A stretch of DNA of 64,000 nucleotides, taken from the NCBI GenBank assembly GCA_963575745.1, contig CAUYUJ010000143.1:1-64000 (forward strand). The letters are read 5' to 3'. Both the position numbers and the translations under genes were made by a program. The stretch is from Prorocentrum cordatum (lineage: Eukaryota). The notes below the pieces were generated by a model, which worked only from the letters and a program-made list of their open reading frames with translations, was not told where the DNA came from and did no database searches. Below, in pieces: positions 1 through 62,109 of the stretch. Each line of letters starts with the position of its first letter. The stretch's first letter is position 1.

Positions 1-997
1 GGGGCCACGAAACGTGTGAGGGGTGTGCCGAATTGGGTGTGCGTGACGCACGCGGGCGGCAACACTGGGGCCTTCGGCGGAGCTCTTATGCGGCCACGAA
101 ACGTGTGTGGGGTGTGCCAGATTGGGTGTGGGTGACGCACGCGGGCGGCAGCACTGGGGCCTTCGGCGGAGCTCATATGGGGCCACGAAACGTGTGAGGG
201 GTGTGCCGAATTGGATGTGCGTGACGCATGCGGGCGGCAGCACTGGCGCCTTCGGCGGGGCTCCTATGGGGCCACGGAACGTGTGAGGGGTGTGCCGAAT
301 TGGGTGGTGGTGACGCATGCGGGCGGCAGCACGGGGGCCTTCGGCGGAGCTCCTAGGGGGCCACGAAACGTGTGAGGGGTGTGCCGAATTGGGCGTGGGT
401 GACGCACGCGGGCGGCAGCACTTGGGCCTTCGGCGGAGCTCCTATGGGGCCACGAAACGTGTGAGGGGTGTGCCAAATGGGTGTGGATGACGCATGCGGG
501 CGGCAGCATTGGGGCCTTCGGCGGAGCTCCTATGGGGCCACGAAACGTGTGAGGGGTGTGCCCAATTAGGCGTGCGTGGCGCATGCGGGCGGCAGCACTG
601 GGGCCTTCGGCGGAGCTCCGATGGGGCCACGAAACGCGTGAGGGGTGTGCCGAATTGGATGTGCGTGACGCATGCGGGCGGCAGCACTGGGGCCTTCGGC
701 GGAGCTCCTATGGGGCCACGAAACGTGTGAGGGGTGTGCCAATTGTGTGTGGGTGACGCATGCGGGCGGCAGCACTGGGGCCTTCGGCGGAGCTCCTATG
801 GGGCCACGAAACGTGTGAGGGGTGTGCCGAATTGGGCGTGGGTGACGCACGCGGGCGGCAGCACTGGGGCCTTCGGCGGAGCTCCGATGGGGCCACGAAA
901 CGTGTGAAGGGTGTGCCGAATTGGGTGTGGGTGACGCATGCTGGCGGCAGCACTGAGGCCTTCGGTGGAGCTCCTATGGGGCCACGAAACGTGTGAG
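1..997 (+). repeat. ~89-bp tandem satellite, array 1 (runs off the window start)
   Basis: The unit GGGGCCACGAAACGTGTGAGGGGTGTGCCGAATTGGGTGTGGGTGACGCATGCGGGCGGCAGCACTGGGGCCTTCGGCGGAGCTCCTAT repeats head-to-tail about 11 times with no unique spacers. Confidence 0.97.
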
Positions 998-5454: not shown

Positions 5455-6060
5455 GGAGCCCATGGCTGGCCAAGACGCCCCCCGGGCGTCCTCGAAGGCG
5501 TCCAAAACGCCCAAAACGGCCTCCAAGACGGACCTGGCAGGCCACCAGGGCCGCCAAGATGGTCCAAGAGGCCTCCATGACGGCCTCTGATGGCCTCCAA
5601 ACTGCCCAAGAAGCATCCAAGACGGCCCAAGAGGGCTCCAATAGAGCCTCCAAGAAAGCCCGCAGATGCGCGAATCATTGACTTCCCGTAGGTTCTTGGA
5701 AGACTGTCGCTTTCTCTCCGTTTCGAGCTTTCGTCGGCTCAAGACAGCCCAAGAAACCTCCAAGAGCTTTCTATGTCAGCTCAGGAGGCACCCAGAGGGC
5801 CCCAAGACGGCCCAAGAGGGTGACAAGATGCCCCGAGAGGATCCCAAGTCGGCCCAAGAAGGCACTTATACGGCCCTCAAGGTTCCCCGGGCCCCAAGGC
5901 GACCCAGAGACTCTGACAGCGCCCATACGATCCAAGAACGCCCTCAGACGGCCCAGTGAGCCCCCAAGAGCCCCCAAGGCGCCCCAAGGGAGCTGCCAAC
6001 AGGCACCAGGAGGCCCCCAAGAACCCTGCAAGAGGCCCCCACCCAAAACCTTCAAGAGGC
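5455..6060 (+). repeat. CCAAGA-rich dispersed repeat
   Basis: Dense CCAAGA/GGCCCAAGA/CTCCAAGA subrepeats, the same family as 37511-38492, 40028-41134, 58960-59560 and 61427-61910. Confidence 0.8.
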
Positions 6061-27599: not shown

Positions 27600-30500
27600 A
27601 AAGGAAAACACTATAATTGAAAGAAGGCGCCGACAAGCGCATACTTGTTGAGAGGATGCAGAACATGCAATCGCTTGTTGTCGCTGATGCACAAGATGCA
27701 ATCAAATTATTGTTGCTGCTGGCGGCTGGAACCGGCGGCTGCAAGCCACGCGGCGTGCCACGGCCGGAAGACCGCCAGTTTGTAGTTGAGCACCCGGTAC
27801 GCCAAAGTGCAGAGTTGAGGGAGGTGGTGGTCGTGCCAACCACGCAGCATGAAAGCGCTCCGTTCGGCCTGAGAGAGGTCGGCCGGGAGTGGTAGAGGTA
27901 AGTGGAGCCCGTGCGCTCGACGAACCGGCTCCGTGGTCGGACATTCGTGCATCATGTGGTGGGTGTTGTTGTCCACCTGGCAGGTGGGGCAGGTGCGCGA
28001 GGAGCAATCCGGATGCAGATGCGAAAGGCGCACTGCGTTGGGCTCGGCTGCCATCACGCACCTCTGTGCCAAAGCGAACCGGTCGTGGTCGGCCCCGGCG
28101 TGCTCGTTCAGCCACTCGCAGAGGGTCGTGTGGCAAGGCGCTGGTACGCGGCCGGCGGCCTCCTTGCGGAGCGTCCGTCGGTGGTAATGTGTCCAAATCC
28201 ATGCCCGCCATGCCTGGCGCACGTGGTGGTCCAGGTGTTCTTAGCGAAGGAGGCGAACATCGAAAGTTTGATGGTCGAAATGGTACTTCCATGGACTGTC
28301 TGTGGGCTGCCAGAAACGGGAGACGACTTGCCGGATCCGGGCAGCCAGGCGATAGCTCCACGATCCGTCCGCACGACCTCCGTGCTGCTCCTGCTCGTGC
28401 AGGTGGGTCCAGGCTCGCTCCATGGTGCGCGCGGTGTCCTCGCTACACGCCGCCTCCACGAGACACCGGATGAGAACCGAGAACTGCACCGCGAAGGGCT
28501 CCACGAGCCATCCTTTGTCCGTGGTGAGCCAGAAAGCACCGCCGTGCCTCCATGCCCAATGTCTTTGTCTCCGGTGATGGTCTTTTCTATGTCGTAGCGC
28601 ATGCTGTGCAGGTCCGTGTCGTCGGCCATGACCCACGGAGCGTCCCAGCGCCACAAGGACATGGTTGCTCTCACCATGGCCATGCGCCTCCTGGCCCCGA
28701 GCCTGGCAGCTTTGGCGATCCTGGCGATGCGTCGGAGTCGTTCCTGGAGCTCCCCTGCCCTCCGTTCGGTGCGCGGGCCGCTGCGGGGGTTGCGGGATCC
28801 AGTAAGGTCGAAAACGATGCCTAGCACCTCGATGTCGGTGTCGATGTGGTTGTCGGCGCGACTGTTGGTGAGGGGGAGGGGGAGGGGGAGGGTGCTGTCG
28901 GCGCGGTCGGTGCCGTTGGTAAGGAAGACCGCCGCCATAGAGCCCTTCTTGGGATCTTCGCGTTGTCCCGTGAGGCGGTCCAGACGTGCCACCTCCTGGG
29001 TATGATGTCGGTCTGCCTCCAAAGAGTTGGTCAGGGCCGTCCTGTCGTCGACGTACGTGTCGAAGTACTGCAGGCCGTCGACTGTGCTCTTCAAGACTGC
29101 CTTGTGCGTGGCGCCGACCACAGCCGCTCCCAGCGCAGAGCTCGGGTCGCCCTGTGCAAGACCGCTGTCTGGCGGTGGGGCGCGCATGGCGTACTCTCCA
29201 CCACGGAAAATTGTGGGCTTGTCCACGTTCACGGAGAAGAGGAAATGAGCGTGCGTGTCCGGCATGCCGTGAAGAATCGCCGCTCGCTCCGCCAAAGACG
29301 GGTCGATGTGATTGAAGCAGCTGGCCAGGTCACTGGTGCGTGCAACTGTCGGGAGGTTGTCGGCTATGCGCGCGGTGACGGCGGCCTCGAACCGGAGCAG
29401 CTGCCCGACCGCGTCTGTAGATTGGACCCTGGTGGTCCAGAAACGGTAATGTTGAACAAGGCACCTCGACAGGGTGCGCGTGACGACGGGGATGACGGCG
29501 ATCGGGCGCAGGTCCTGCGAGGAGATCTTCGGAATGAAGGTCACGTTCTGCGCGCGGAGCGCGTCCGGCCAGATGCCCTTGCCCATGATCATGTCAGCGA
29601 GGTCCGCCAGGTGCTGCCACGCAAGCGTGGGCATGGAGAGCAGGAAATCGGCGTCGTAGTCCGTGGGCCCGGCTGCGGTGCCCCGGCAACCACGTGCTGC
29701 CGCCTTGAGGCCTGCAACGGTGAACCTGTCCCACTCGAGGTGCCGCTTTCCGCCGCACTCCACGCACGGTCGGACTGGGGCCACGTATCTGGCGGCCTCG
29801 GCGAAATACTGGTCGAGGCTGGAGGTGTCTGGGGGAGCGGCCATCTTGGCGTCCCAGGCGCGCTTGGCTGCGGTCATGCTGGCGGCGCATCCCCCGGAGA
29901 GCCGGCCCGAGGTTGGATCGGTTGCGGCCGCAGAGGGGGCGTTGGCTGCGTTGCGGACGCAGGCGTAGGCAGACGTCATGGAATGATGCTGCTGTTGGTG
30001 TCTCCACTGGTTCAAGCGGGACTGGATGACCTCCTCCTCGAAGGCCGGGATGGCCCGTCGAACGCTGCAGACGGCGTCGTCGTAGGTGGCCGGGTGGGGA
30101 ATACAGCCGTCGGAAACCAGGGAGCCGAGGCTCCTGGCGAGGGAGGCGCTGAGTGCCGCGTCCTCGCCCTGGATGTTGCCGTACTGCAGGAGGCGCCGGT
30201 AGACGCGTCGGAGTCGCCGTTCTGCGACTGGCTGTCGGTGCTCCTCGGTGTTGGCGTGGTCCGCGGCAGATTTCCACACCTTGGTCCATCGCCGCACGTC
30301 GTCGCCGTCGGACCTGGTGAGGCTGTGCTGGGGGACACCGGCGCTGAGCTCCAGGGTGTCCGACCAAGCCTGCCAATACGTGCTCGGGTCGTGCCCGGCC
30401 GCCGCCTCGGCGAGGCGCGTGGTGGTGGCCGCGCGCTCCCATGCTTCCAACCACAAGGCTTTGGAGGCGGGAGGTGTCAGCGGGTGGTGGCGTCGTAGGG

Positions 30501-32135
30501 AGGTGACGTCGGCGTCGGCGCTCACGGCGAACTCCGTGCAGTGTTGGACGTGGTCGGATGGACTCTTGGCTGAAAGCTCGTGCGAGACAGGTGGGCCGAG
30601 CTTGGCATCGAGTGTCGTCAAACTGCGGCTGCGTGAATAATCGATGCACCTGCCGCCGGTATGCGTGGGGGCATCCAGGTGGCCCACAACTCGGTGGTCG
30701 ATGGTGAAGTCCGCGAGGGAAGAATAGTCGTCGTCGTCTGGCGGGGCATTCCAATCCCCAATCATGACTGTGGGTAGGTCGGCGGCAGCAGCGCGCACGG
30801 CGAGAGCATCTGCGAGAGCGGCCCTGCCGGCCTTCGATGCCGGCTTGGTGCCGGAGTGGCCGTACACTCCGATGATCAAGACGTCCGTTGAGCCGGCGCG
30901 AAGCACTGCTGATGCTACCCGGCCTCGTAGGGAGGTGGGCCAGCACCATGGATCGCGACGCATGCCTGCTGGACCGTAGATGGCCACGCCCGCTGTGTTC
31001 GGAGTGGTCGTGTGAGAGGCCGTTGCGAAGGCGTGGCCGAACTTGCTGCGCGCGGATACGCGCTCCTTCGCACGCGTCTCGTCCCAGTGAGTCTCTGTGA
31101 GCACTACGACGTCGGCATCCATGCGGGTCGCGTGTCGTAGAGCACTCCTGAGGTCGTCTTGGTTCGGGGCCCCCTGCACGTTCGAGTGCCAGACCGTGAC
31201 CGCCACCTGGCGGGCCCCTCTGTGGGGGGACGGGCCGATGTCGGAAGCTGGAGTGGGAGTGGTGAGCTGCTGTGTGCGACTGTCGTCGCCTGTAGTGGTG
31301 GGTGCGTGTCGGTGGTTCCCGCAACGGCGTCGGTGCGCAGGCGGGCCTGGATTGGCCGCCTCGCCGACCCTGCAGGCGTGGGTCCACCAAACACGGGGCC
31401 TGCATGACCGTCGCGGGCACCTTCACCTCAGAGAGTGCGGCCTCCAGCGTGCGACCTTGGCCTTGAGGGCCTCGGCGGTCTGCACTTCCTGATGTCGAAG
31501 GCCATGCTTCCAGAGCAACAGGTGGAACTCCTGGAAGCTGATGGGTGCTGGTGCTTGTATGCACGGGTCACAGAAGGCGTCGGCACGCTTCATCTTCTGG
31601 TGGCAGTGCTTGCACTGGAACTTGTACCTGTTGACGCCGGACTCGGAGACGAAGTACGGCACGGTGGTGTCGAGGTCGTGGGCGGCGTTCTGGAGAGCCT
31701 CGGGGGCGCGAGCCATCCTCTGACGCAGGTTCCGCTCGTGCCCCGCCTGTATGGCCGCCTGGTTGTTCTTCTGCAGGAAGGCCGCCACGGTGCGACGCGC
31801 ATCCGGGCCGAGCTTGTTGTCGGAGGCGGCCTGCTTGTACGTGCAGCCGCGGCAGTCGCGGCGGTGGTGGTGGAGGGGCTTGTTGGCGGCCCTCGGAGCA
31901 ATGCCTGTTGGTGGGACCCATCCACATCGATCGCATATGTTGCCGTCGCCAGGGCGAGCGTACCGATATCGCACGTCTCGTATGGTGTCGTAGAAGGCTT
32001 TGGCCGCTGGCGCCACCTCTTCTCCGGGGTGGGAGTCGAGCCAAGCAAGAGCGGCAACTTTAGCTTGTTGTATGGTGCCGGCGTCGGTGGGAGACGGCAT
32101 GCGCGTAAGCAACTGCTCTGTCCAGTGGTAAATGG
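27600..32135 (-). mobile_element. APE-type non-LTR retrotransposon (ZnF - 2A-like - APE - RT - C-terminal ZnF), recently inactivated
   Basis: APE motifs HSNVQG, LTETH, GDWNA, IDY, SDH. RT motifs FIPK..LRPI, DLASCFNHI, GLAQGDPSS, YVDD. C-terminal CPTC..H..HEC. Lesions are TGA at 31423, a frameshift near 28563 and TAA at 28241. Confidence 0.93.
28108..31206 (-). CDS. APE endonuclease-reverse transcriptase ORF of the LINE (frame stays open to 31422; tail after ~28563 is out of frame)
   Basis: 1032-aa ORF carrying the motifs listed for the element. Confidence 0.9.
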   Translation of the reverse strand: MAVTVWHSNVQGAPNQDDLRSALRHATRMDADVVVLTETHWDETRAKERVSARSKFGHAFATASHTTTPNTAGVAIYGPAGMRRDPWCWPTSLRGRVASAVLRAGSTDVLIIGVYGHSGTKPASKAGRAALADALAVRAAAADLPTVMIGDWNAPPDDDDYSSLADFTIDHRVVGHLDAPTHTGGRCIDYSRSRSLTTLDAKLGPPVSHELSAKSPSDHVQHCTEFAVSADADVTSLRRHHPLTPPASKALWLEAWERAATTTRLAEAAAGHDPSTYWQAWSDTLELSAGVPQHSLTRSDGDDVRRWTKVWKSAADHANTEEHRQPVAERRLRRVYRRLLQYGNIQGEDAALSASLARSLGSLVSDGCIPHPATYDDAVCSVRRAIPAFEEEVIQSRLNQWRHQQQHHSMTSAYACVRNAANAPSAAATDPTSGRLSGGCAASMTAAKRAWDAKMAAPPDTSSLDQYFAEAARYVAPVRPCVECGGKRHLEWDRFTVAGLKAAARGCRGTAAGPTDYDADFLLSMPTLAWQHLADLADMIMGKGIWPDALRAQNVTFIPKISSQDLRPIAVIPVVTRTLSRCLVQHYRFWTTRVQSTDAVGQLLRFEAAVTARIADNLPTVARTSDLASCFNHIDPSLAERAAILHGMPDTHAHFLFSVNVDKPTIFRGGEYAMRAPPPDSGLAQGDPSSALGAAVVGATHKAVLKSTVDGLQYFDTYVDDRTALTNSLEADRHHTQEVARLDRLTGQREDPKKGSMAAVFLTNGTDRADSTLPLPLPLTNSRADNHIDTDIEVLGIVFDLTGSRNPRSGPRTERRAGELQERLRRIARIAKAARLGARRRMAMVRATMSLWRWDAPWVMADDTDLHSMRYDIEKTITGDKDIGHGGTAVLSGSPRTKDGSWSPSRCSSRFSSGVSWRRRVARTPRAPWSEPGPTCTSRSSTEVVRTDRGAIAWLPGSGKSSPVSGSPQTVHGSTISTIKLSMFASFAKNTWTTTCARHGGHGFGHITTDGRSARRPPAAYQRLATRPSASG

Positions 32136-35089: not shown

Positions 35090-36982
35090 CTGGGACAGCA
35101 GAGAAGCCGTCCTTCAAGCACATGAGGACCCTCCGCCGGCCCGAAAACTGGAGAAGGCTCGAGGCGGCCCTCCCCCAGGCTGCACAGGAACGTCCAGCGC
35201 ACGCGACGAGCGCTGAGCAGGGCACCATCCCCGCACCCACCTCGATCCGAGCCCTCGGTCCGACTGCAGGAGCCTCTGGAGGCCCGAGAGGCCCCCGCGG
35301 AGGGCGGCCCGAGCCGCTCGCTCCGTGGGGCCACGCCGAGGCCGCACCGCCTCACCACCACGGCCCTCCTCCAAGCGCTCGGCTCCCGGGCCGTGCCTCG
35401 AGTCCCCGGCGGCCGTTCGTCGGGAGCGGCCAAGAGGGGGGTGGCCAAGAGGGGGGTGTCCAAGAGGGGGGGGTGCAGACCATGACCGGCGGCATGTGCG
35501 CGGCCCAGCGGGGGGGCCTGGGACGTAATGGAATAAGAAGAGGCGCCATGAGATCTGGGGAATTATCATGGCCCGCGCCATGATATCCACCCCCCCTAGT
35601 CATCACCCCCCTCTTTTCCGCCCCCGAATTCGGGACGATCCCGGCCCAACCCGGAACGCACTGGTCGAGGCGCAGCTGCTGGAGCGCAACCCGAGGCACG
35701 CAGTCTCCCACGAGCCTTCGAGCACGCCCGAAACACCTGTGACCCCACCGACTACGGTGTTTGGAGAAAGAAATACTGCATGATCATAAACGTTCGGAGC
35801 TCCGCGCGAATTTCTTGGATCTGCGCTGGACCCCCCTCCCTGGCGCGCGGAGCGCGCCAGGGGCGGCACCGGAGGCGCCGATCCAAGAAGTCCGCGCGGC
35901 ACTCCGAAAATTCATGCTGTTGTTCTTCGAAGGGTATTACCGCGCCGCTTGGGGGCCACTGGTATCCTGCTGCGCCGGGTTCCCCACGCTGCCCCGGAAG
36001 ATGGACACCGACGGCGGGTGCGGCGGCGGCTGTGGCTCCACGTCGGGCTGCCCCGCCTGGTGCCTACCCCACGGCGGGAACGGAGGGCGCTCCTCGTGGA
36101 GACAGAAGGAGGGGTGAGGAGGGGAAGGAGGAGGAGGAGGAGGAGGAGGAGGAGGAGGAGGAGGAGGAGGGAGGAGGAGGAGGAGGGAGGCGGGAGGAGG
36201 GAGGAGGGAGGAGGGAGGAGGGAGGAGGGAGGAGGGAGGAGGAGGGAGGAGGAGGGAGGAGGAGGAGGAGGAGGAGACGAGGAGGAGGAGGAGGAGAAGG
36301 AGGAGGAGGAGGAGGAGGAGGAGGAGGAGGAGAAGGAGGAGGAGGAGGGAGGAGGGAGGAGGGAGGAAGAGGGAGGAGGAGGAGGAGGAGGAGGAGGAGG
36401 AGGAGGAGGCTTGGAGGAGCACCTGGACTTCTCGTCCTCGCCCTCTGCCCCTTCGCCTTCGCCTCCCTTCAGGGCGTCGTTGGGGGGGGCGGGGGGGATA
36501 AAGCTCCGGGGATGTGGTTCGAGGCTTGAGGCCTTCAAGCGTTTTCGTTGGTGCTCGGCAGTCTCCCGGACCTGGACTGCTCTCCAGCAGCTGCGCCTGG
36601 CCGAAAACGTTCGAAGGGTGTACCTGGACCGTCTCGCACGGACGCCTAGGGCCCGAGGTACGGCCCGACAACCAACAGGCCCAAGATGAGGGGCAGAAGG
36701 AGCTGGGGGAGGGAAAGGACGAGGAAGGAACGAGTGCATTCCTTCGGCGGCGAGCGAGGGGGGGAAGTGAGAGGCAGAAGGCCTTCTCAGAAGGCGGCGG
36801 GACCTCTCGGAAGCCCTCGCGCCTTCTGAGAAGCTTTCTCTGTCTTCGGGGACGGCAAAGAAAACTGCTCAGAAGGCCGGGCAACTTCCGAGCCTTCTGA
36901 GAAGGCCCGCCCCTTGTCACTTCCCCCCTGGGCTCGCCGCCGAAAAGATGCGGAAGATGACAAGAAATGAACGATTGCATTC

Positions 36983-37507
36983 CTGGCTGCAGTCGGTGTC
37001 TGGCTGCATCGCGTGCAGCGTCAACTGCGCGTTCGTTGTGTACTCTAGGGTTCGATGGAACCGCCTGCCGTGGCTGGTCATCGTGAAAACCTGGACCATG
37101 CCATATGCCCTGTACAGCACCACTTCCTTCCACTTCCTCCTGGATTGCTGCAGATGCGCACCTACCAACACCGCTACATGGGCATCCTTGTCCAGGGTCT
37201 CCTGGTCCGGGTCGGCAAAGAAAAATGTGACGTCCTGTGGAGGGTTGCCGATATTCACAAAGAAACTATTGCGCACTGGCTCGAACAAATCCGCAACCCA
37301 CGTTTCAGACGGTTCAAGCTCTTCAGGGTCGTACACGTCACCTGCGTTCAGCATGGGCAACCGCTGGTCAGGAACCCATGCGTGCAGCAGATAACCCTCA
37401 GCTGCAACGTAGCGGTCCTGTCGAAACTGGTACGAGCCTCGCACCTCGCACTGAATAGCACCGCGGCCATCAGTGTTGATCATCTGACACACGTCGCGGT
37501 CTCGCGA
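36983..37507 (-). CDS. Host gene coding segment (SRDRDVCQMINTDG...HGRRFHRTLEYTTNAQLTLHAMQPDTDCSQ)
   Basis: 175 open codons with a probable CAG|GA donor. The start is 37507 (precise excision) or 37483 (canonical AG). Confidence 0.85.
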
Positions 37508-37510
37508 AAT

Positions 37511-38492
37511 CCCACCAGCCCTCTGGGCGTAGGTGGTCTAGAGCAGATCCTCTTCCACCCCTCCCTCTTCCCCCTTGGGGAGGGGTTTACCCCTCCCCCT
37601 ACCCCCTCCCCTGGACCTGGACGGGGGGGGCCGCGGGTAGTTAGAGCGTCCCAGATGGCCCAAGACGGCTCCAAGAGCGCCTCAGAGAACCCAAGATGAG
37701 CTCCAAGATGGCTCAAGATAGCGCAAGATCGCTCGAGATGGCTCCTAAGATGGTTCCAAGAAGCCCAAAGACGGCCCCAAGATAACTCCAAGTGGCCAAA
37801 CAGCTCCCCAAGGAGGCCCCGAAGAGGCCAAAATCGTCCCAAAACCTAAGGAAAATCAATGATTTTTGCTTTCTCGCCTTTTCGCTTCCGATGGCCATCC
37901 GAGGCCTGGAGATGGTTCCAAGATGGCCCAAGAGGGCCCCAAGAGAGCCCCAAAAGAGCCCCAAGACGGCCCCAAGAGCGCCCAAGAGCACTCCAAGAGC
38001 GTTCCAAGAGGGGTCCAAGAGGCGATTTTAGGGGCTTCCGAGGGGGGACGCTAATTAAACCCCCCCTCTTGTTTGATCGATCTCCTCCAAGATGGCCCCA
38101 AGAAGCGCCCAGGAAGCCCCAAGAGGTCCCAAGATGGCCCCAAAATGGCCCCAAGAGGCCCCCAAGAGGCCCCCCGGAGGCCCCCAAGAGACCCCCAAGA
38201 GGCCCCAAGAGCCCCCCCAGATGCACCCAAGATGCTCCAAGAGGCCTCGGCGAGAATGCCTAATCATTGATTCTACACAGGTTTTAGCCACATGGAGGCC
38301 TCTTGGGGGGGGGCACGGATTAAGATGACTCCAAGAGCGTCTGGGAGAGCCCAAAATGACCTCCAAGATGGCTCAAGATATCCCAAGATGTCTCATAATG
38401 GCTTCCTCTGTGTGCTGCCCACTTCTCTGATCGAGGCAATTCCTCTGGGCATCGTTTCTGGATGGGCTGGTGGGGATTCGCGAAGCGACAAC
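37511..38492 (+). mobile_element. ~1-kb CCAAGA-rich element inserted in coding sequence
   Basis: Ends CCCACCAGCCC and (subterminal) GGGCTGGTGGG, AAT on both flanks. Homologous to 40028-41134. Confidence 0.85.
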
Positions 38493-39164
38493 AATGAAAT
38501 CCTCCAATGCGCGGAAGAAATTGCCTTTCACTTTCAGAGTGAACGTCTGGCAGTTTACCTCGACGATGATCCGCCGCTCCAACTGTTTCAGGTCCACTAT
38601 CGGCACGTGGCCATTGCTTGCTGTCTGCTTGGCCCATTCCTCGCCCTGGAGCTCCGCCACGTCGGCTTCACTCTGGTACGACTCTCTCATACCGAGAGCC
38701 ACGAACCTGCCCTGGTCCTCCGGGTCCTGCGCCTTGCACCAAATCAACTCCGTGAAATGCAGGAGCGGCTTACGGGTCGCTAGCTTGTATACAGTGTCCA
38801 GAACGCCACCAAACTCCTGATAAGACCTGTCTTTGTGCTCCATCCACTCGATGAGTGGGCGCCGCAATGAGCCCATGATTTCGTATACCTCTGGGTCCGG
38901 GATTGCCGTCGGTTTTTGGTTCCACGTGTGCCGGACTACCAGGAACATGAAAGAGGACAACACATCGATGGCGACTTGTGTCGAGACCTTTTTGGCGTGC
39001 CGCAAAAGAAGCAAGCGGTGAGCATGGAAATTGCATGCCAGTCTGGCCTGCCTGTTGAGGGCCGGCTCGACAGTGGGAGGAGGGCTCAGGCCGCTGGTGG
39101 CCTTCCAGCCCGTGGCCGGCGGCGTGGGCGTCAGGTCGGCCGACATGTACAGTTGCGCGTTGTC
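38493..39164 (-). CDS. Host gene exon (DNAQLYMSAD...FFRALEDFI)
   Basis: 224 open codons, AAG|G acceptor, ATT|GT donor. Confidence 0.88.
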
Positions 39165-39669
<505 letters not shown>

Positions 39670-39948: not shown

Positions 39949-41257
39949 TCGGGGACGCAATAAGCTGGGTCCGCCCAAACCTGGGTCGGCCAGGACCCTT
40001 CCGCGAAGCCCAGCTGGCCGCCTAGTACTCCCACCAGTCCTCTGGGCGTCGGTGGTTTAGGGAGTTTCCTCTTCCACCCCTCCTTCTCCCTTCGGGGAGG
40101 GGTTTACCCCTCCCCCTACCCCCTCCCCATGGACCTGGACAGGGGGTTTCGCGAGTCGTCGGAGCGTCCAAAAAGGCCTCGGCGAGGAAGCCAAACTCAT
40201 TGAGTTTACTAGGGTTTTGGCCCCATTCTGGCCTCCTGGGGGGGGGAGGCTCTAATTAGTACCCCCTCTCCCCTCCTGTGATCGATCTCACCCAAGATGG
40301 CCCAAAGATGGCCCCCAAGACTCCCAAGGGTGCCCCAAGAGGGCCCCAAGAGGTGGCCAGGAAGCCCCAAGAGGCCCCCAGGAGGCCCCCAGGATGCCCC
40401 CAAGAGGCTCCCAAGAGACCTCCAAGAGACCTCCAAGAGACCCCAAGAGGCCCCCCAGAGGCACCCAAGACGCTCCAAGAGACGTCGGCGACAATGCCGA
40501 AATCGCTGATTTGACTAAGGTTTTGGCCACATTTGGGCCTCCTGGGGGGGGCACTGCTTCAGATGACTCCAAGAGCGCCTGGGAGAGCCAAAGATGATCT
40601 CCAAGATGGCTCAAGATACCCCAAGATGCCTCAAGATGGCGCCAACGATGCTCCAAGAGGCCCCAAGACCGCTCCAAGACGGCTCCAAGGGGCCACAGAG
40701 CTCCCCCAGGAGGCCCCGAAGAGGCCAAAGTCCTCCCAAAACCGTCCAGAGGAAAAACCATGTTTTTGGCTTTCTCGCCGAGGCCTCAAGATGGCTCCAA
40801 GATGGCCCAAGAGGGCTCCAAGAGCGCTCCCAAGGCTCCCAAGAGCGCTTCAACAGGGCCCCAAGAGGCGTCCAGGAGGCCCCAGGAGGCCCCAACAGGC
40901 GCCCAAGAGGCCTCCAAGAGGCTCCCCAGAGACCCCCAAGGGGCCCCAAGAAGCTCTCCGAGGCACCCAAGACGCTCTAAGAGGCGTCTGGGACCGCCAA
41001 GAGGCCCCCAAGAAGCTCCAAGAAGCCTCCACTGGGGGACCCTTCCTGTGTGCTGCCCGCTTCCCTGATCGAGGCAATTCCTCTGGGCATCGTTTCTGGA
41101 TGGGCTGGTGGGGATTCGCGAAGCGTTAGCAATTCCCAAACCCGCGTCAGCGAAGGGCGGAAAACGGAAATCGGCCCCCCGTTGTGCCCAAACCCGGGTC
41201 AGCCAGAGGAGATTGGCTGACCAATATGAGCACTGACCCCCGCTGCGTGAGCCCCGA
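39949..41257. mobile_element. MITE family B acting as an Introner (fills GC-AG intron 39946-41259), with a nested CCAAGA element
   Basis: TCGGGG...CCCCGA flanked by a perfect GCCTG TSD (39944-39948 and 41258-41262). Confidence 0.85.
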
Positions 41258-41981: not shown

Positions 41982-42209
41982 CTCGTGCCATCAGCACGTT
42001 GGGGCGTTTCAGACTGCCTGCTAGCTGTCTGGTACGACTGCTGTAACTGTCCAAGGGCGCCGTCTCTTAGAATGCACTACCTGCACGGAGCTCCCAGCAC
42101 GGCCCTGGGGTGCCAACGCACATGAAAGCAATGTGCGTTGTTGTGCTCTTGCTTCGAACGCCATCCTGCCCAAGATTGCTTGAATACTGCCTCAGACCCC
42201 CCTGGCCCA

Positions 42210-42379
42210 TCGGGGATCTACTAATCCGGGCCAATCCAGACAAGGGTCAATCAGGCCTTGCAAGGTCATGCAAGATTCCGCAAAATCCTCTACGCAAGCC
42301 CGGGTCAGTGCAACCCTGGCCCTGCAGGGTCCCGCAAGATCCGGCGCTCTGACCGACCCCCGTTTGCATGGGCCCCCGT
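42210..42379. mobile_element. MITE family B, older intronic copy
   Basis: TCGGGGATC...CCCCGT; flanks GCCCA/CTCCA match at 3 of 5 positions. Confidence 0.7.
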
Positions 42380-42813
42380 CTCCAGAACCCCGACGTCATG
42401 ATTTGTTCATACCCTGACCTTCCAGAGACCTATTTTTTAGCACCACTGGAGACCTAAAAACCTAAAAAACTGAGCGAAACAGCCTAAAGCCAAGACGTAG
42501 AACAGCCTTGGGATAGGTGTTTAAGTCGCGTGCTATTTTTTAGCCCTCTTGGAAGGTCAGGGTTGTTCATAGCGTCGACCCCTAGAGGTCCCGACCCACT
42601 CCCCGGGACGGGTTCCTCGGCCTGTATAATTTGTTTGGCGCTCCCGAGGCCCGGCGAGGGCCCCCACGGAGGCCGAACATAGCGAACACCTCCCGCCGTG
42701 GCTTCTTCACGACCCGAGGGGGCCTGGGTTGAAGTCGGGCCTGTCCCCCTAGAGGGGGATTTTCGACGAAACCCGCCGTGGCTTCTTCACGACCCGAGGG
42801 GGCCTGGGTTGAA

Positions 42814-42997
42814 GTCGGGCCTGTCCCCCTAGAGGGGGATTTTCGACGAAAAATAAAAAATCCACCAGAATAGTCAAACAATAATCCAAAAATAGTCTGG
42901 AGACCATTTTCTGCGCATTTTTTGACATTTTTGGAATATGTTTGGGGTATTTTTCATTTTTCGTCGACAATCCCCCTGTAGGGGGACAGGCCCGGCC
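42814..42997. mobile_element. MITE family C, copy 2
   Basis: TIRs as at 11632-11885. The left junction is duplicated in tandem (79 bp). Confidence 0.8.
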
Positions 42998-43015
42998 CAG
43001 CTTTCGTCGGCAGCT

Positions 43016-43180
43016 GAAGGGGCCCCAGGACACACAAATGAGCACACACAAATAAAACGATCCCCAATAGTTTCCCCATATTTTGGGTTTTTTTTCGCCT
43101 TCCCCCCCACTTCCCATATTTTCCCATATTTTCTGGGGAATCGCCGATTCATTGTGTCTGTGTGTTTTTTTCCCTTCCTG
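43016..43180 (+). repeat. ~160-bp dispersed repeat family E (also 51170-51329, 55091-55251, 56716-56876)
   Basis: GGCCC[CT][AG]GGACACACA.AT.A..ACACACAAATAAAA...CCCCCCACTTCCCATATTTT...ATTGTGTCTGTGTG...CCTCCTG. Confidence 0.9.
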
Positions 43181-44160
43181 TGGGCAGCGCCGGCGACCGC
43201 GGGCGCGCCCGTGCGGAACCCGGCGGGCCGCGCCGGGCACGGCGCGCACGGGGGCGGGCGGCAGAGCAGAGGACGGCCGCGGAGGCGGCAGGAGGGGAGG
43301 GGCCCGGCCGCCAACACTTTTTTAGTCTGCGGGTCGGGAGCGGGCCCCTTCCGGTCAAGGGCTAAACGGGGCGCGGGTAGCTCTAATCGGGGAGACAGGG
43401 CACAGGCAGGCGGGGCCTCAGGCGGCCGGAGGGCTCAGAAAACAGGCGGCGCCGAAGATCTTGCACAGGACAAGGTGCGCCATGGCCCGGCCGCCAACGC
43501 ACGCCCCCGATGCGGCCCAGAGACTACCCCGGGCACGCCCGACTAGACGTCGGTCAGAAGAGTTCGTGGCCCCACAGGGAGTCCAGCGATTAGACGTCGG
43601 TCAGAAGAGTTCGTGGCCCCACAGGGAGCCCAGCGAAGGTTCCAGGTCCTACTGGCAGGGTCCACGTGGCGGCGCCGCCCCATGTGGGCGCAGCCCTCAC
43701 TCGGTTCGTGGCTGCATATGGTTGGGTCCTTCGTCAGGCTAATTTTCGGGGCGACTCTGGCCCCAACTTGCGCCCCAAAGAGCGGCCCACACCGGCCCCG
43801 ATGTCGACCCAGTGTCGACGATGTTCCGATCTGGTTCGGCCCCCGGGCGGGGACGCTCTCGCTTGGGCCATCTAGAAGCTTCTATCCTGGCTCCTTTCGG
43901 AACCCTTTTCGGGACCTCCTGAAGACCTTGTTGGCGCGTTTTGGGCCGACTTCGGGCAGTCTTGGGCTTATGTTGGGCAGTGGTGTGGCTATTTCTCGCC
44001 TCCTGGAAATCCATCGTCCATATCACTGATCTGGTGGTAATGATGACGGACACCAGTCAGCTACACGGTATACCTGAGCCCACTCGGCGATGGGATGGAG
44101 AAGAAGTGGAGCGCAGGAATAAGTACAATACGCAGACACACACACACACACACACCGACG

Positions 44161-44196
<36 letters not shown>

Positions 44197-44211
44197 CACA
44201 CAAACACTGAA

Positions 44212-44242
<31 letters not shown>

Positions 44243-44621
44243 CGCACGAACATACACACACACACACACACACACTCTCACACACACCCATACACATACG
44301 CACGCACGCACTCTGGAATGGGCAGGCGGCGAATGCGAAGCGTCTCGAACCAGAAGGGCCTGATAACGGCAGCGAAATGACAGTCAGCCAGGCACTTCTT
44401 CCCGAAAGAAACGAAGTCTACGCCAAAAGAAATCTCAAACAAATCACCCAACGCCGCAACAACCATGCAAGGTTGCGGCCATGATCCGTTACACCATTGT
44501 GGCGCTGCCTTCCAGCCTGCCAAAAGACAGATTTACCGAGCCTTTCGGGGGGGGCTCGGTGGAACCATCCCGAATGTGCTTCGGTGCTGCGCTGGACAGT
44601 GGCAGTGTCGGCCGCAGGCAC

Positions 44622-46494
44622 CTGGATACTGATAGTTCTTCAGCTTCGGGAAGTTCCTATTCTCGGTAACCATCATGTACTTCCACAGAAGCGTTATATC
44701 TCGCCACGCGCCATATTCAGGGCAATATTCGACAGTGTAGGAGTCAAGCATCGCCGACCCTTGGGTGGTCCTGTACAGGTGCTTCTGTATCCTCTTGGCG
44801 AACTCTTCACCAACCTGATCTGGAGCCTGCATCGACCATTGGCCCTCCTCCCAGCTCCACATTGTGTTCTTGATATGCAATTCGTCAAAATATGCGATGA
44901 TGTTGGCACGGGCGACGCACAAGTCTGGGGATGGGATTTCTATCGTTTCTGTTTGCTTCGCGAAGCAGTGGTGGGATATGCCAAAATGATCTGGCTTCTC
45001 CCCCAATGCGGGCGCAACAAGCGACCGCTCAAGATCATCTGGAGGCCGCCGGAGCACGGCGTCTATCATGGCACACATCGCCCCTAAAGTAATGATGCGC
45101 GTTGTCTCAAACTCGCGCCCGCCAGCTATAGAAAATGCGGATGTACAATATATCGTCGCTATTCGCTGCAATGTCAGGCAAAGGTCAACTTGCAACTTCA
45201 GAGTCATGACTCCAGTACCCCACACGTCCAGGAACTGACGCTTGGCTAACGACTCTGGCCCCACCGGAATTGGAAGAACTCTGGCAAACACATCGGTGAC
45301 GAGGGCACATTTCTGGTAGTGGAACCCCGTATCTCTCATGTTGTCCAGGCGGGCGCATAGCACCTCGCATGTTTTCACGGTGTGCCAGATCGAGCGCACT
45401 GCTTGATCGTGAACGGCGCTCACGCGCTCGGGGCCATCGCCAGACACGTGCGTCACACAGCCCAGCTCCCTGACCTCCCTGGGGATGCTCAGGAAGTTCA
45501 CTGCGGGCTGCTGCCGCTCATCCGTCTCCGCGCCCTCCAGGTTGGATATGTCTTGGCGGACGAAGTACTCGAAGAAGGGGAACATGTCCCAGTCGTCCGC
45601 CGAGCGGCCGTCGCCGCAGCCTTCGCCGTGGTCGACGGCTGGGATGGCGCCGCGCGCGGGCTCGGCACTGGCCGCCGGAGGTGCTCGCGGCACGGAGGTG
45701 TGCGGCGTGTCGCCGTTCGCGACGAGGTCCAAGAGGGGCGGGGCCGTCCGCTCGAGGCCACCGCCCCTTCTCAGCTGGGCGTCGCTCATGAGCTCGCGAA
45801 GAGCCCGCATCCTCTCCAGCGTCCGCTGGGGGTACTCCGCTCTCTTGCGGCCCGTTGTCAAGGCTCCATCCTCATCCTGGCAGCCCTTTGCAGTGGCAAG
45901 GGCCAGCTGCTGCAGAATCATCGAGATGAGCTGGGACTCCTGTGGGGAGAGCCGGACACAGTGGCGGAGGTCGTGCTCGATGAAGGAGACGAAGACCTCG
46001 CGCAGTCTCAGGGAAAAGAGCTTCGCCCGAGGGCGCGACCACCCGTGCTGCACGCGCAGGAGGTAGTGGAAAGTCTCGAGGTAGAGCCTGTGGAAACAGG
46101 CGTCAAAAGGCGTGCGGAAGTCAGTGTCCACCACCTTCTGCGACTTCGCCAGCGCGCACTCCAGCTGCTCCTGGGCCAGCCAAGGCAGGAGGAACTCGTA
46201 GATCTTGGACGGGTCCTGCGTCTTTTTTGTCATTGGGACCGTGAACAAGAAAAGCCACCACGCTTCGTCGTGAATGCGCTCGGCGGGGATGTCATCCAGC
46301 ACCATAACTGTTTTGCACTTCTGCTTTGGGTGCACCCTCGACGTCTTCACGTGAAACTCGCGGCCAATGCCAGTGTTGCAGAGAGCCACCCTCCAGCAGT
46401 CGCTGGCCTTCAGCTCGAGGATGAGGAACACAAACTCTGGCTCGTCCTGCCTTGGATTATTCCATGGAACAGGCACCACCATGGTGTCCCCCTC
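44622..46494 (-). CDS. Largest host gene exon (~624 codons; EGDTMVVPVPW...NFPKLKNYQYP); large protein of unknown function
   Basis: Core of the 679-aa ORF with globular composition, AAG|G acceptor and CAG|GTG donor. Confidence 0.92.
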
Positions 46495-46498
46495 CTTG

Positions 46499-46709
46499 GA
46501 GGCCGCCGAAATGGGGCCAGAGTTCATGGGGCCGGAGGATCGCACCTGATCGCCGATGCTTCGCGGATGCACCAGCGACGTCGGAATGGGGAGAAAAAAT
46601 CAGGATCCAGATGACGCCGCACCGCTGTTGCCGCACCGCCGATGCACCAGCGAGGCAGTGCGACCCTCTCTTCGGCCCCCGGAGGTCCCGGGATGCCTCG
46701 GGAGCCCTC
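46499..46709. mobile_element. MITE family D copy abutting the splice acceptor of the large exon
   Basis: GAGGCCGCCGA...TCGGGAGCCCTC with TTG on both flanks. Confidence 0.65.
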
Positions 46710-57800: not shown

Positions 57801-59814
57801 GGAAGATCCTGCAGGAAACTGGTTTTCCTCATGATGGCTTCTCATCCTTGCCAATTTTGACAGCCACTGGGCCTGGAAATGGCCCCAGAACGGAGGAGGA
57901 CAGCAGGACCCTTTCTCCTCAGAGCCCAGCTTCCTCCACGGCGACCCCCACAGATCGACATCTTGACCTCTCCCGGGGTGCCGCCTGCTAAGGATCTCGG
58001 GTCGCATCCGTGTGTGGGTGTTTCTCCCCCGCAACAGCGGCAACGATGACCTGCGTGACAACTGATGACAGCCACCACGCGTCTGAGCTCGGTGAGGCCA
58101 CACGTAGACTTGGCGTGCCGAAGACGGCACGCGCTACCTGTGGCAACGGCGCTGGCTGGCTGCGCACCACAGCGGGTGGGCAGCGCGGCTGCCAACATCT
58201 GCGCGAGGGAGAGGTCACAGCCGCCAGCGGAACGCGTGTTCTGCGAAGGTGGCCGAAGCTCGTGGCAGAACTTCGGGCCGTTGTTCGCCAGAGTAATCAG
58301 GAAGGGGGGAGGAGCCAGAGGAGCCAGAGGAGAACGGATGGATGCATCAAGCCGATGTCAAGAAATTCCCCCATGATCCAAAGGATCCTTCGTATAAACG
58401 GGCATCACACAACAGCAATCAAGGATCCGCAACACAGTACAATACCTGACAAAAGGCCGGCATAGACTCCGAAATCCTGCCATGCCACAGAAAAGGTACC
58501 AGGAAAGGAGGGGAGGGAGAAAGAAGAAGCGCTGAGAAACTCAGAACACAGAAAACCATGTGCCAGGCAAACCCTGGAACAGCGAATGGCACAACGCAGT
58601 GCGCTCCAAGTCTGGGCGCGAAGCACTCGCCAGAGTCGAGATGGAATCGGGCGGCCAAACATACTGTGCACGCCTGGGGCGGACCCAAGGAAACCCAGGC
58701 AAGGGGCCCAGAGGGGTGGCATCCGGCTGCGGTGGCCCGGAGCCACCTGGAGGCGACCCCGAGCTCCTGGGCACGGGGCGGGCGCGTCCTCGGGGCCTCT
58801 GCCGACGCCCCTGGGCCTCGGCCCCCACTCCCGGGGCATGGGATCCGCAAGGAGCCCGGAGCCCACACTGCGAAAAGTCCCTCGGGGCTTCTCGCGTCTG
58901 GTCGGGGGCTCGTCGCGTCTCCCCGCGTGGACTGCTCGGGCCCAAAAGAGTGCCTCAGGACGGACCCCAAAGGCCCAGCGAGGCCCCCAACGCGGTCCCA
59001 GAGGGCCCCGAGTCGCCGAAAGATCGCTCCAAGACGCCCAAGGTGGCCTCAAGATGGCCCAAGAGGCCTCCAAGACGCCCCAAGGTGCCTCCAAGAGGCA
59101 TCCCAAGAAGGTCCAAGAGGCAAACATCCCTGATTGTCCTTAGGTGTTTGATCGATGTTGACGTTCTCGCCGTTTCGGCGCTCCGACGCTCCAAGGCGGC
59201 CCAAGAGGCCCCCCAAACCACCCCAAGACGGCCCAAATGCCTCCAAGAGGGCCCCCAGACGGCGTAAGGGCGCCCAAAGACGGCCCAAGAGGTGCCCAAG
59301 ACGGCCCAGAAGGGGGCCCAAGAAGACCTCGTAAGGGGCCCAAGGGAAGGAACACGAACCGAAAATCCAAGTCTTCCGCCCCAAGAGGCTCCGGGGAGGC
59401 CCCAAGAGGCGCCCAGAGGCCCCGAAGAGGCCCCCGAGAGACCCAAAAGAGGTCCAAAAGAAGCCCCAGCCCCTAGGAGGCCCCCAACCAATCCCCAAGA
59501 GTCTTCAAAACTGCCCCCAAGATGCCATGGAGAGGCCCCCCACGAGATCCAAACGAACAGCCAATAGGCTTCATACCCAAAGCTGCCACGCTGGCGGGAT
59601 GGGCCGAAGGCTACTATATCCGCCGCCCACTGTTGATTTATCAAAGGGGTGCCTGGCATGGTAAACTTCTTACGGTTTGATGCTGGCTCTTTTCCAAAAA
59701 GGACCCCCTCTGGGGCTTCGGCCCGTCCCGCCGGCCACCTGAAATGCTCCCAAACGAAGACAACGTTCACAAAAGAACCTCCAAGACGGCTCAAGATGGC
59801 CTCTGAGACGGCTA

Positions 59815-61424
<1,610 letters not shown>

Positions 61425-62109
61425 TAAGATGGCCCAAGATGGCCTCCAAGCTTCCCCAAGATAGTCCAAGATGGCCACCAAGATGGCCGAAGAGGGTCCA
61501 ATATACCTTTAAGTCCGCCAAAGAAGCCTCCGCGACGGGCCAAGTTGGTTTCAAGACGGCCCAAGACGGCCCAAAAGGCGCCCACGAGGCCTGTAAGACG
61601 GCCCAAGAGGCCTCCAAGAGGTCTTCCAGAAAGGTCCGAAGAGGCGACAATCATTCATATTTCTTCAGTTCCTGACGGATTTGGGTAGCTGCTTCGTTTC
61701 GGCTTTCCGCCGACGGCCCGAGACGGCCCAACAGCCCCCCAGGATCGCCCAAGAGGCCTCCAAGATGGCCCCAGAACGGCCGACGAGGCCCCAAAAACGG
61801 CCCCAAGAGGGCCCCAACACGGCCCGACAGGCCCCAAAAAGGCCCCCAAGAGGGTTCCCACTAAGCTCCCAGGAGGCCCCAAGGATGCCCCCAGAGGCTC
61901 CCAAGATGCCCCCTCCTCCTCCTCCTCCTCCTCTTCCTCCTCCTCCTCCTCCCCCTCCTCCTCCACCTCCTCCTCCTCCCCCTCCTCCTCCTCCTCCTCC
62001 TTCTCCTCCCCCTCCTCCTCCCTACAAGTACTCAATATGAATACTACTCTCCCTCTTCCCCCGATGGCGGCCTGAAAGTATTAGACCCCCCCGCGTACTG
62101 TTTTTTAAC

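What the first reader, a model, noticed from the sequence alone, without database searches (positions are those of the whole stretch)
37483..38500. 1-kb element inside coding sequence whose precise removal needs a non-AG acceptor; its ends form a ~20-bp stem
Seen: deleting 37511-38492 plus one AAT gives a seamless ALEDFI-SRDRDVCQMINT. The intron would start GT (38492) but end ...GGGATT, not AG. The ends pair (TCGCGAATCCCCACCAGCCC with GGGCTGGTGGGATTTCGCGA), bringing the exons together. Canonical alternatives exist: GT to CAG|ATG at 37483 loses 8 codons, and a GA donor to GAG|AC adds 2 codons. Both flanking segments remain stop-free for 175 and 224 codons. Inference: the options are imprecise canonical intronisation, structure-guided non-canonical splicing (as reported for inverted-repeat introns of Amoebophrya), or a recent gene-killing insertion.
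Basis: partly seen in the sequence, partly recalled or inferred. Interest (0 to 1): 0.75.

Follow-up and report, generated by a model that had tools for sequence, protein, structure and literature searches.

The report
Helitron-like insert absent from messenger RNA
A 985-base jumping element of the rolling-circle type sits inside a conserved coding exon of a red-tide dinoflagellate gene, and transcript assemblies lack it to the exact base although no possible cut site has the normal splice signals, so it is either an unusual fold-guided intron or a recent insertion that the sampled cells do not carry.

Summary
The insert is real. It is 985 nt long and splits a conserved exon of a giant DUF3638/DUF3645-family gene of Prorocentrum cordatum. 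Precise removal fits 34 of 34 homologues without a gap. Spliced transcript contigs from 3 of 4 runs laid (2 studies) show exactly this junction and none of the canonical alternatives. The four possible cut registers are AT-GG, TT-GA, TG-AT and GT-TT; none has AG. Two further copies show that the element is not a MITE with a target duplication. Best reading (0.55): fold-guided, non-AG intron like those of Amoebophrya. Main rival (0.33): the RNA comes from cells, an allele or a gene copy without the insert. No run known to be DNA was laid, so this stays open. The public gene model uses an AG junction that these contigs do not show.

The parts
37510..38494 (+). Non-autonomous Helitron2-like element, 985 nt, antisense to the host gene. 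As an intron on the minus strand it can be drawn in four registers, from 38495-37511 (AT-GG) to 38492-37508 (GT-TT).
   Evidence: Ends defined from three copies; registers; 985-nt skip in contigs
37510..37521 (+). 5' asymmetric terminal inverted repeat, starting at the first base (T) of the element
37512..37536 (+). Predicted 5' hairpin that uses the 5' repeat; similar fold in all three copies but not significant against shuffles in two of them
   Evidence: z -1.25, -0.17, -2.08
38464..38476 (+). 3' asymmetric inverted repeat, ending 18 nt before the element's last base
38479..38487 (+). Invariant mini-hairpin CGC-GAA-GCG (3 of 3 copies), followed by a variable 7-nt tail (38488-38494)
   Evidence: a fourth tail as a loose end behind 38487 in X1 and X2
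37508..37510 (+). AAT at the left junction; one of the two 3-nt repeats that make the cut position ambiguous
   Evidence: (both=3)
38493..38495 (+). AAT at the right junction; reflects the AN^T motif at both junctions, not a target duplication
37918..38244 (.). Two blocks of degenerate 11-bp tandem repeats in the element's interior (37918-38022, 38087-38244)
37492..37507 (-). First 16 nt of the downstream exon part, predicted to pair with the insert's 5' leader (38490-38478) in the pre-mRNA
   Evidence: pair probabilities 0.65-1.0
38493..39164 (-). Upstream part of the interrupted exon (224 codons)
36983..37507 (-). Downstream part of the interrupted exon (175 codons)
40029..41132 (+). Second, diverged copy of the element (1,104 nt) inside the canonical GC-AG intron 41259-39946 of the same gene

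Best explanation
A non-autonomous rolling-circle (Helitron2-like) element was pasted, without target duplication, between the second A and the T of an AA^T site in a conserved exon, antisense to the gene (ends and target shown from three copies; rolling-circle mechanism inferred from the terminal anatomy). The gene is still used, and the insert is removed from the pre-mRNA to the exact base without an AG acceptor (exact absence from spliced contigs shown; that removal happens on RNA is inferred). The cue is most likely the fold (predicted, not probed). The element's 11-bp asymmetric repeats form a helix that closes exactly at the insert's last base in the AT-GG register. After a 2x2 internal loop, the insert's 5' leader pairs with the first 16 nt of the downstream exon and holds that exon next to the upstream cut site. 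The enzyme is not identified. A U2 spliceosome with relaxed dinucleotide rules (the GT-TT register keeps a GT donor) and a spliceosome-independent cut-and-ligate route are about equally likely.
For: (a) Joint 37507->38493, skip 985, in X1 (depth 14.4), X2 (13.9) and X6 (2.3). Listed contigs of these runs leave the genome exactly at the neighbouring intron edges (36981 in X1, X2, X6, X8; 39171 in X1, X2), so they are spliced RNA. No other joint at the element's ends among the 5 joints listed. (b) X1 and X2 show 0 differences from the window over 1,206 exon bases, while X6 has 1 and X8 has 3, so X1 and X2 carry the window's haplotype as far as can be seen. The species' assembly is described as haploid (PMC10666404, passage). 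(c) The leader-exon pairing is unusual: duplex -47.8 kcal/mol against a mean of -34.5. 7 of 2,683 AN^T-type sites in the window are as strong; 1 is this site and 2 are the element's own ends, leaving 4 of 2,680. 0 of 114 sites in the host exons are as strong. 37 of 5,000 synonymous recodings of the 7 exon codons are as strong. The two copies that do not sit in this exon lack the extension (gain -8.8 and -6.9 against -20.5). (d) No second copy of the exon among proteins of 107-343 or 344-2,000 aa (weak). (e) Precise removal is the ancestral reading: best of 17 junction models, 284.1 bits. Read-through stops after 42 codons, so the insert must go for this copy to work. (f) Precedent: RNA-validated non-canonical introns with 8-20-nt inverted and 3-5-nt direct repeats in Amoebophrya (PMC7789003, passages).
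Against: No run known to be DNA was laid, so nothing shows that the cells giving the RNA carry the insert. Zero differences in 1,206 bases has probability 0.33 or 0.02 even for an unrelated strain at the divergence of X6 or X8. X6 has another organism label and one SNP yet the same joint, which fits either model. X8 (the only run on record as RNA) stops at 37485 and says nothing about the junction; X1 and X2 are RNA by guess and X6 is unlabelled. The stem statistic is post hoc: the site was picked partly for its stem, and it is one exonic copy against two others. Pairing could also come from target choice on DNA. At least 19 contigs in the rows shown keep an element end joined to other flanks (loose ends at 37507-37510), so this family is not generally cut out of transcripts. 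All 6 other introns of the public model are G[AC]-AG|G. No circular or lariat form is seen (no back-joint across the element). No Rfam family matches.
Confidence: 0.55

Rival explanations
1. Recent insertion, no special splicing. The element landed in the lineage or cells that were assembled and knocks out that copy. The transcripts come from cells, an allele or an identical gene copy that never had it (or that lost it by exact excision on DNA).
For: An exactly ancestral junction is what an empty site gives for free. The family is abundant and has close siblings: the terminal 99 nt are identical in contigs of depth 90-113, and interior contigs are 96-99.6% identical. Helitrons are 1.2% of this species' assembly and called likely active (PMC10666404 supplement). 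The assembly covers 4.15 of an estimated 4.75 Gb, so a second copy could be missing. No cut register has AG or AC.
Against: X1 and X2 match the window's exon haplotype. The leader-exon complementarity (4 of 2,680 unrelated sites; 37 of 5,000 recodings) would be a coincidence or would need DNA-level guide pairing, which the two other copies lack. No second copy found in three protein searches (weak).
Confidence: 0.33
2. Imprecise canonical intronisation: the spliceosome uses nearby G[TCA]-AG pairs (-8, +2, the +21 AG|GA..AG|G pair on a 9-nt internal repeat, or the annotated -21).
For: 92 in-frame pairs exist. The +21 pair 38442-37521 has the AG|G form used by all 6 other introns of the model. 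The public model P0001 uses 38531-37484.
Against: None of these joints appears. All score below precise removal against homologues (278.2, 270.3, 266.6, 251.0 against 284.1 bits). Contigs drop rare variants, so minor use is not excluded; this reading could only be the main fate of the filled allele if the first rival is true.
Confidence: 0.04
3. Artefact: reverse transcriptase jumps across the stem, or the assembly placed a repeat copy inside the exon.
For: A strong stem with short repeats is the setting for template switching (recalled, not from a call). The element is a high-copy repeat.
Against: A template switch should favour the 7-nt repeat (976-nt loss) or the 9-nt repeat (922-nt loss), or drop the paired exon bases; the joint seen is 985 nt and restores the ancestral protein. 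The insert has both complete ends and follows the family's AN^T rule, which a misjoin would not be expected to do.
Confidence: 0.08

Closest known systems
Non-canonical introns / introner elements of Amoebophrya A25 and A120 (Farhat et al. 2021, PMC7789003; passages read)
   Same: Non-GT-AG ends, an 8-20-nt inverted repeat between the two ends, a 3-nt direct repeat over the boundaries, repeated mobile-element origin, exact absence from RNA.
   Different: Here the host is a free-living core dinoflagellate whose other introns are G[TCA]-AG|G. The element is about 1 kb and Helitron2-like (asymmetric repeats, no true duplication) rather than MITE-like, and part of the stem is formed with the exon. 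RNA-level removal is not yet separated from an empty allele.
Helitron2 / HLE2 non-autonomous elements (Bao and Jurka 2013, PMC3627910; HELIANO, PMC11417382; passages read)
   Same: 5' T, 5' repeat at the very end, 3' repeat about 20-30 nt from the end and directly before a hairpin, possible 5' hairpin, no target duplication.
   Different: Target is A[A/C]^T rather than T^T or TTTT^. The hairpins are weak by computed energy. No RepHel partner could be looked for.
Introner-like elements of Symbiodinium and Polarella glacialis (Roy et al., bioRxiv 10.1101/2020.10.14.339549; parts 1-2 of 4 read)
   Same: A mobile element that interrupts coding sequence in a core dinoflagellate and is missing from the mRNA.
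   Different: Those described in the parts read take GT/GC/GA and AG sites from a 3-8-nt target duplication or from the element's ends; this one has neither a duplication nor an AG.
Helitron-derived introners (Gozashti et al. 2025, PMC12130899; passages read)
   Same: Rolling-circle elements are about 1% of classified introner families (example Suillus subalutaceus family 5, no duplication).
   Different: That survey lists AG and AC as the usual 3' sites and checked other cases by hand. No Helitron-derived, AG-less case in a dinoflagellate appears in the passages seen; its datasets were not seen.
Nonconventional introns of euglenids and non-canonical introns of Fritillaria borealis (review PMC11282704; passages read)
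   Same: Transposon-like introns with paired ends and non-GT-AG junctions.
   Different: The euglenid CAG/CTG pairing at +4..6 and -8..-6 is absent here, and no circular product was seen. Fritillaria's commonest sites are AG-AC and AG-AT.

Membership tests
Helitron2 / HLE2 (non-autonomous) | 5' end T with 5' inverted repeat 0-2 bp from the end | tested here: met
   3 of 3 copies start with T plus the repeat; criterion from PMC3627910
Helitron2 / HLE2 (non-autonomous) | 8-15-bp 3' repeat about 20-30 bp from the 3' end, directly upstream of a hairpin | tested here: met
   11-13-bp repeat spans 31 to 18 nt from the end, followed by an invariant CGC-GAA-GCG hairpin in 3 of 3 copies; the hairpin is not significant by energy (z -0.5 to +0.4)
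Helitron2 / HLE2 (non-autonomous) | 5' terminal hairpin that uses the 5' repeat | tested here: inconclusive
   Folds in 3 of 3 copies, with a changed loop in L001, but z -1.25, -0.17, -2.08
Helitron2 / HLE2 (non-autonomous) | No target-site duplication | tested here: met
   Copy 2 and L001 have ACT left and AAT right; only copy 1 has AAT on both sides
Helitron2 / HLE2 (non-autonomous) | Usual insertion between T and T | tested here: inconclusive
   If the ambiguous T is given to the 3' end: T^T in 2 of 3 copies and T^G in copy 1; the shared rule is A[A/C]^T
Helitron2 / HLE2 (non-autonomous) | Ends shared with an autonomous RepHel element of the HLE2 clade | not testable with these tools
   No genome held
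Amoebophrya-type introner element (IE) | 8-20-nt inverted repeat between the 5' and 3' ends | tested here: met
   11-bp perfect core within 30 nt of both ends
Amoebophrya-type introner element (IE) | 3-5-nt direct repeat over the exon/intron boundaries | tested here: met
   3-nt repeat, slide 3; it is not a true duplication
Amoebophrya-type introner element (IE) | Non-canonical splice dinucleotides | tested here: met
   AT-GG, TT-GA, TG-AT, GT-TT
Amoebophrya-type introner element (IE) | Removed from RNA of cells whose DNA carries it | tested here: inconclusive
   Exact skip in 3 of 4 runs; no matched DNA run
Amoebophrya-type introner element (IE) | Family forms introns at many positions | not testable with these tools
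   No genome held; the two other copies seen do not form introns on their own (copy 2 lies inside a canonical intron; L001 has no exon context examined)
Symbiodinium/Polarella introner-like elements | GT/GC/GA donor and AG acceptor supplied by duplication or element ends | tested here: not met
   No AG in any register of the observed skip
Symbiodinium/Polarella introner-like elements | 3-8-nt target-site duplication | tested here: not met
MITE (cut-and-paste TIR element) | Symmetric terminal inverted repeats plus target duplication | tested here: not met
   Repeats are asymmetric by 18 nt; no duplication in 2 of 3 copies
Self-splicing group I/II introns and other Rfam families | Match to a covariance model | tested here: not met
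   Only a chance miRNA hit, 21.3 bits against a cut-off of 55

The most novel reading that the evidence does not exclude
Core dinoflagellates have an unrecognised, fold-guided way of removing inserts without AG. In it, antisense Helitron2-like elements become exact introns: their asymmetric repeats mark the 3' cut, and their terminal hairpin leader pairs with the downstream exon like a guide, so only insertions whose flank happens to be complementary survive in coding sequence. Such introns are mis-annotated with nearby AG sites and may explain part of the unusually low AG|G acceptor share reported for P. cordatum.
Probability: 0.3. Interest if true: 0.85.

Novelty: new variant of a known kind. 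Interest (0 to 1): 0.63.

Why it matters
Non-AG, inverted-repeat introns are described in print for the parasite Amoebophrya. My searches and a 2024 review (passages) gave no report of them in a free-living core dinoflagellate, and none derived from a Helitron2-like element. If removal is on RNA, the pathway is wider than thought and can be studied in a culturable alga with one RT-PCR and one genomic PCR. It would also bear on a visible oddity: only 79.7% of P. cordatum acceptors are AG|G against 93-97% in the other free-living and symbiotic species. A reviewer queried this and the authors thought it not technical. Here the public model's one AG|A junction is the one that the contigs do not show. 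If instead the site is simply empty in the RNA donors, the case shows ongoing Helitron insertion into conserved exons, which is ordinary.

Tried and rejected
No whole genome was available, so copy number, an autonomous partner and other exonic copies could not be counted. More copies: 0 in viral contigs with two patterns, 0 in prokaryote genomes, 1 in metagenome contigs. My first idea, that the 7-nt repeat TTCGCGA is the target duplication (976-nt element), is rejected: copy 2 and L001 carry that motif inside the element, it scores 275.6 bits, and the contigs skip 985. My second idea, the +21 AG|GA..AG|G pair, is not seen in the contigs. DIRS-like and Crypton-like readings of the ends were considered from memory and dropped in favour of Helitron2, whose published criteria fit; they were not tested further. 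A search for an insert-free genomic reading frame among proteins found nothing, but the database also lacks the transcript-derived protein, so this is no evidence. X8 does not cover the junction. dN/dS was not computed: no close orthologue at DNA level was found (best homologues about 30-40% identical). Rfam gave nothing. Look-ups of earlier findings by sequence, by words and near this place gave nothing.

Full report
WHAT IS THERE. The minus strand carries a long gene broken into exons from about 46500 down to at least 26720. A public protein, P0001, labelled Prorocentrum cordatum by its source, matches these exons. Its longer homologues (2,235-4,980 aa) carry DUF3638 and DUF3645 (5 of 5 scanned); the window holds only the N-terminal part, which has no Pfam match. 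One exon, 39164-36983, is interrupted by 985 nt of non-coding sequence with 11-bp tandem repeats. Read-through stops after 42 codons.

THE EMPTY SITE. Of 91 homologues, 34 span the junction; they were picked by BLASTP with the 985-nt model as query, a slight bias in its favour. In their alignment none of the 34 has a gap against the precise junction through the conserved stretch from Ala-Leu to Asp-Val. A profile built from them alone scores precise removal best of 17 models: 284.1 bits, against 278.2 (+2 codons, GA-AG), 275.6 (976-nt loss), 270.3 (-8, GT-AG), 266.6 (+21, GA-AG|G) and 251.0 (the annotated -21).

WHAT THE RNA SHOWS. I laid 4 of the 24 listed runs on 36700-39178; all are assembled contigs. 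X1, X2 (one study, RNA by guess) and X6 (another study, kind not on record) each have a contig that joins 37507 to 38493, skipping 985 nt, with 3 ambiguous letters. Listed contigs leave the genome at 36981 (all four runs) and 39171 (X1, X2), the edges of the neighbouring introns, so they are spliced transcripts. The joint table lists 5 joints and only this one touches the element's ends. X8, the one run on record as polyA RNA, stops at 37485 and is silent on the junction. X1 and X2 have no difference from the window in 1,206 exon bases; X6 has one and X8 three. Limits: contigs drop rare forms; 24 of 104 loose-end rows and 32 of 256 pieces were shown; no run known to be DNA was laid, and the joined form in other runs was not given. 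The four cut registers are AT-GG, TT-GA, TG-AT and GT-TT. The other 6 introns of P0001 are all GA- or GC-AG|G, and the model's junction at this place (GT-AG|A, 21 codons lost) is not among the joints.

WHAT THE ELEMENT IS. A second copy lies at 40029-41132 inside a canonical intron of the same gene, and a third complete copy came from a metagenome contig (L001). Read on the plus strand, all three start with T and an 11-12-nt repeat. All three end with the inverted partner of that repeat, two T, an invariant CGC-GAA-GCG hairpin and a variable 7-nt tail, followed by a host T. The left flank ends in AA or AC. Copy 2 and L001 have different trinucleotides at their two junctions, so there is no target duplication; the AAT pair in copy 1 is the AN^T motif appearing at both junctions. 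This fits the published Helitron2 anatomy: 5' T, 5' repeat 0-2 bp from the end, 3' repeat about 20-30 bp from the end before a hairpin, no duplication (PMC3627910 and PMC11417382, passages). Points against a clean fit: the target is not strictly T^T, the hairpins are mostly not significant against shuffles, and no autonomous partner could be sought. That GAA mini-hairpins of this kind are more stable than such models predict is recalled, not tested. Helitrons are 1.2% of this species' assembly (PMC10666404, supplementary note part 1 of 3; its supplementary tables were not seen). The family is abundant in transcripts: the terminal 99 nt have depth 90-113 in X1 and X2, and at least 19 contigs in the rows shown join that end to other flanks.

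THE STEM. In the pre-mRNA the element's repeats pair 38474-38464 with 37511-37521, closing exactly at the last base of the AT-GG register. After a 2x2 loop, the leader 38490-38477 pairs with 37508-37492, most of which is the downstream exon (probabilities 0.65-1.0). This extension is rare: 7 of 2,683 comparable sites in the window are as strong (4 of 2,680 after removing this site and the element's own two ends), 0 of 114 in the host exons, and 37 of 5,000 synonymous recodings. The other two copies gain only -8.8 and -6.9 kcal/mol from their flanks, against -20.5 here. The test is post hoc and rests on one exonic copy. The arrangement recalls the pairing between a group I intron's guide sequence and its 3' exon (recalled); Rfam finds no such family.

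HOW IT MOST LIKELY WORKS. Shown: insertion of a Helitron2-like element into a conserved exon, and exact absence from spliced contigs at non-AG ends. Inferred: that cells carrying the insert remove it on RNA, cued by the fold. I give this 0.55. The rival, RNA from an insert-free allele, copy or sub-population, gets 0.33; it needs no new biology, and the haplotype match is only moderate evidence (chance 0.33 or 0.02). Artefacts get 0.08 and canonical intronisation 0.04. Before my odds were 30% splicing and 60% empty allele. The shift rests on the pairing statistics and the haplotype match. In the same turns I saw earlier AI notes on this genome that describe other AG-less hairpin inserts missing from RNA, several in one gene, and AT-GG introns with a leader and a helix closing at the 3' end. 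I could not check them and do not count them as evidence, though I cannot exclude that they coloured my estimate; if verified they would raise it.

COMPARISON AND NOVELTY. It works like an Amoebophrya introner element and meets three of that definition's sequence criteria (PMC7789003, passages). It is not a member of the Symbiodinium/Polarella introner classes, which use AG and a true duplication (bioRxiv 10.1101/2020.10.14.339549, parts 1-2 of 4). Helitron-derived introners are known but rare (PMC12130899, passages; datasets not seen). Repeated intron boundaries with AG|G are the described dinoflagellate norm (PMC5032977, passages). Euglenid and Fritillaria introns are more distant parallels (PMC11282704, passages). 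Searches, and a 2024 review (PMC11453091, passages), gave no report of AG-less introns in Prorocentrum or of a Helitron2-derived one; one search listed no Helitron paper on this species among the 20 of 143 shown. The library lacks most subscription journals. Verdict: a new variant of a known kind if spliced, an ordinary recent insertion if not. Interest 0.63.

Noticed in passing
window 37577-38425: In X1 and X2 most of the element's interior is tiled by contigs 96-99.6% identical to the window, the longest at about the same depth as the exons (15.8 and 16 against 14.4 and 13.9), with fixed differences at 37652, 37735, 37736 and 37990; X8 has none and X6 only a short piece. A transcribed sibling copy is the simple reading; a stable excised insert plus consensus errors in the window is not excluded. 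Depth of contigs is a poor measure.
   Followed up: partly
window 40029-41132: Second copy of the element, same orientation, inside the GC-AG|G intron 41259-39946 of the same gene.
   Followed up: yes
L001 594-1480: Third complete copy (887 nt) in a metagenome contig, with the same ends and a different interior next to the 3' repeat.
   Followed up: yes
window 39165-39669: 505-nt GA-AG|G intron made almost wholly of (GT)n and (GTT)n, with a 15-nt identical repeat at its two boundaries; contigs leave the genome at its edge.
   Followed up: partly
window 36736-36951: Multi-copy fold-back element (60-nt arms, inner 42-nt arms) in the intron 36982-36093; related copies are deep in all four runs.
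   Followed up: no
window 28108-31422 (-): 1,104-codon frame with an endonuclease/exonuclease/phosphatase domain (E 2.5e-12), by eye a LINE-like ORF2, inside the 6.8-kb intron 33591-26797 of the host gene; no reverse transcriptase match passed the Pfam threshold.
   Followed up: partly
window 44533-46599 and 42018-44621 (-): The public model P0001 starts at an internal Met; a 688-codon upstream frame matches the homologues and can be joined by a canonical GT-AG|G intron 44621-42018 (predicted only).
   Followed up: partly
window 5550-6060, 59000-59530, 61420-61910: Further blocks of the same 10-11-bp CCAAGA-type repeats without this element's ends; probably other families or fragments.
   Followed up: no
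window 37223, 37227, 37253: Exon differences in X8 (all three) and X6 (37227 only) against the window; strain differences or editing cannot be told apart.
   Followed up: no
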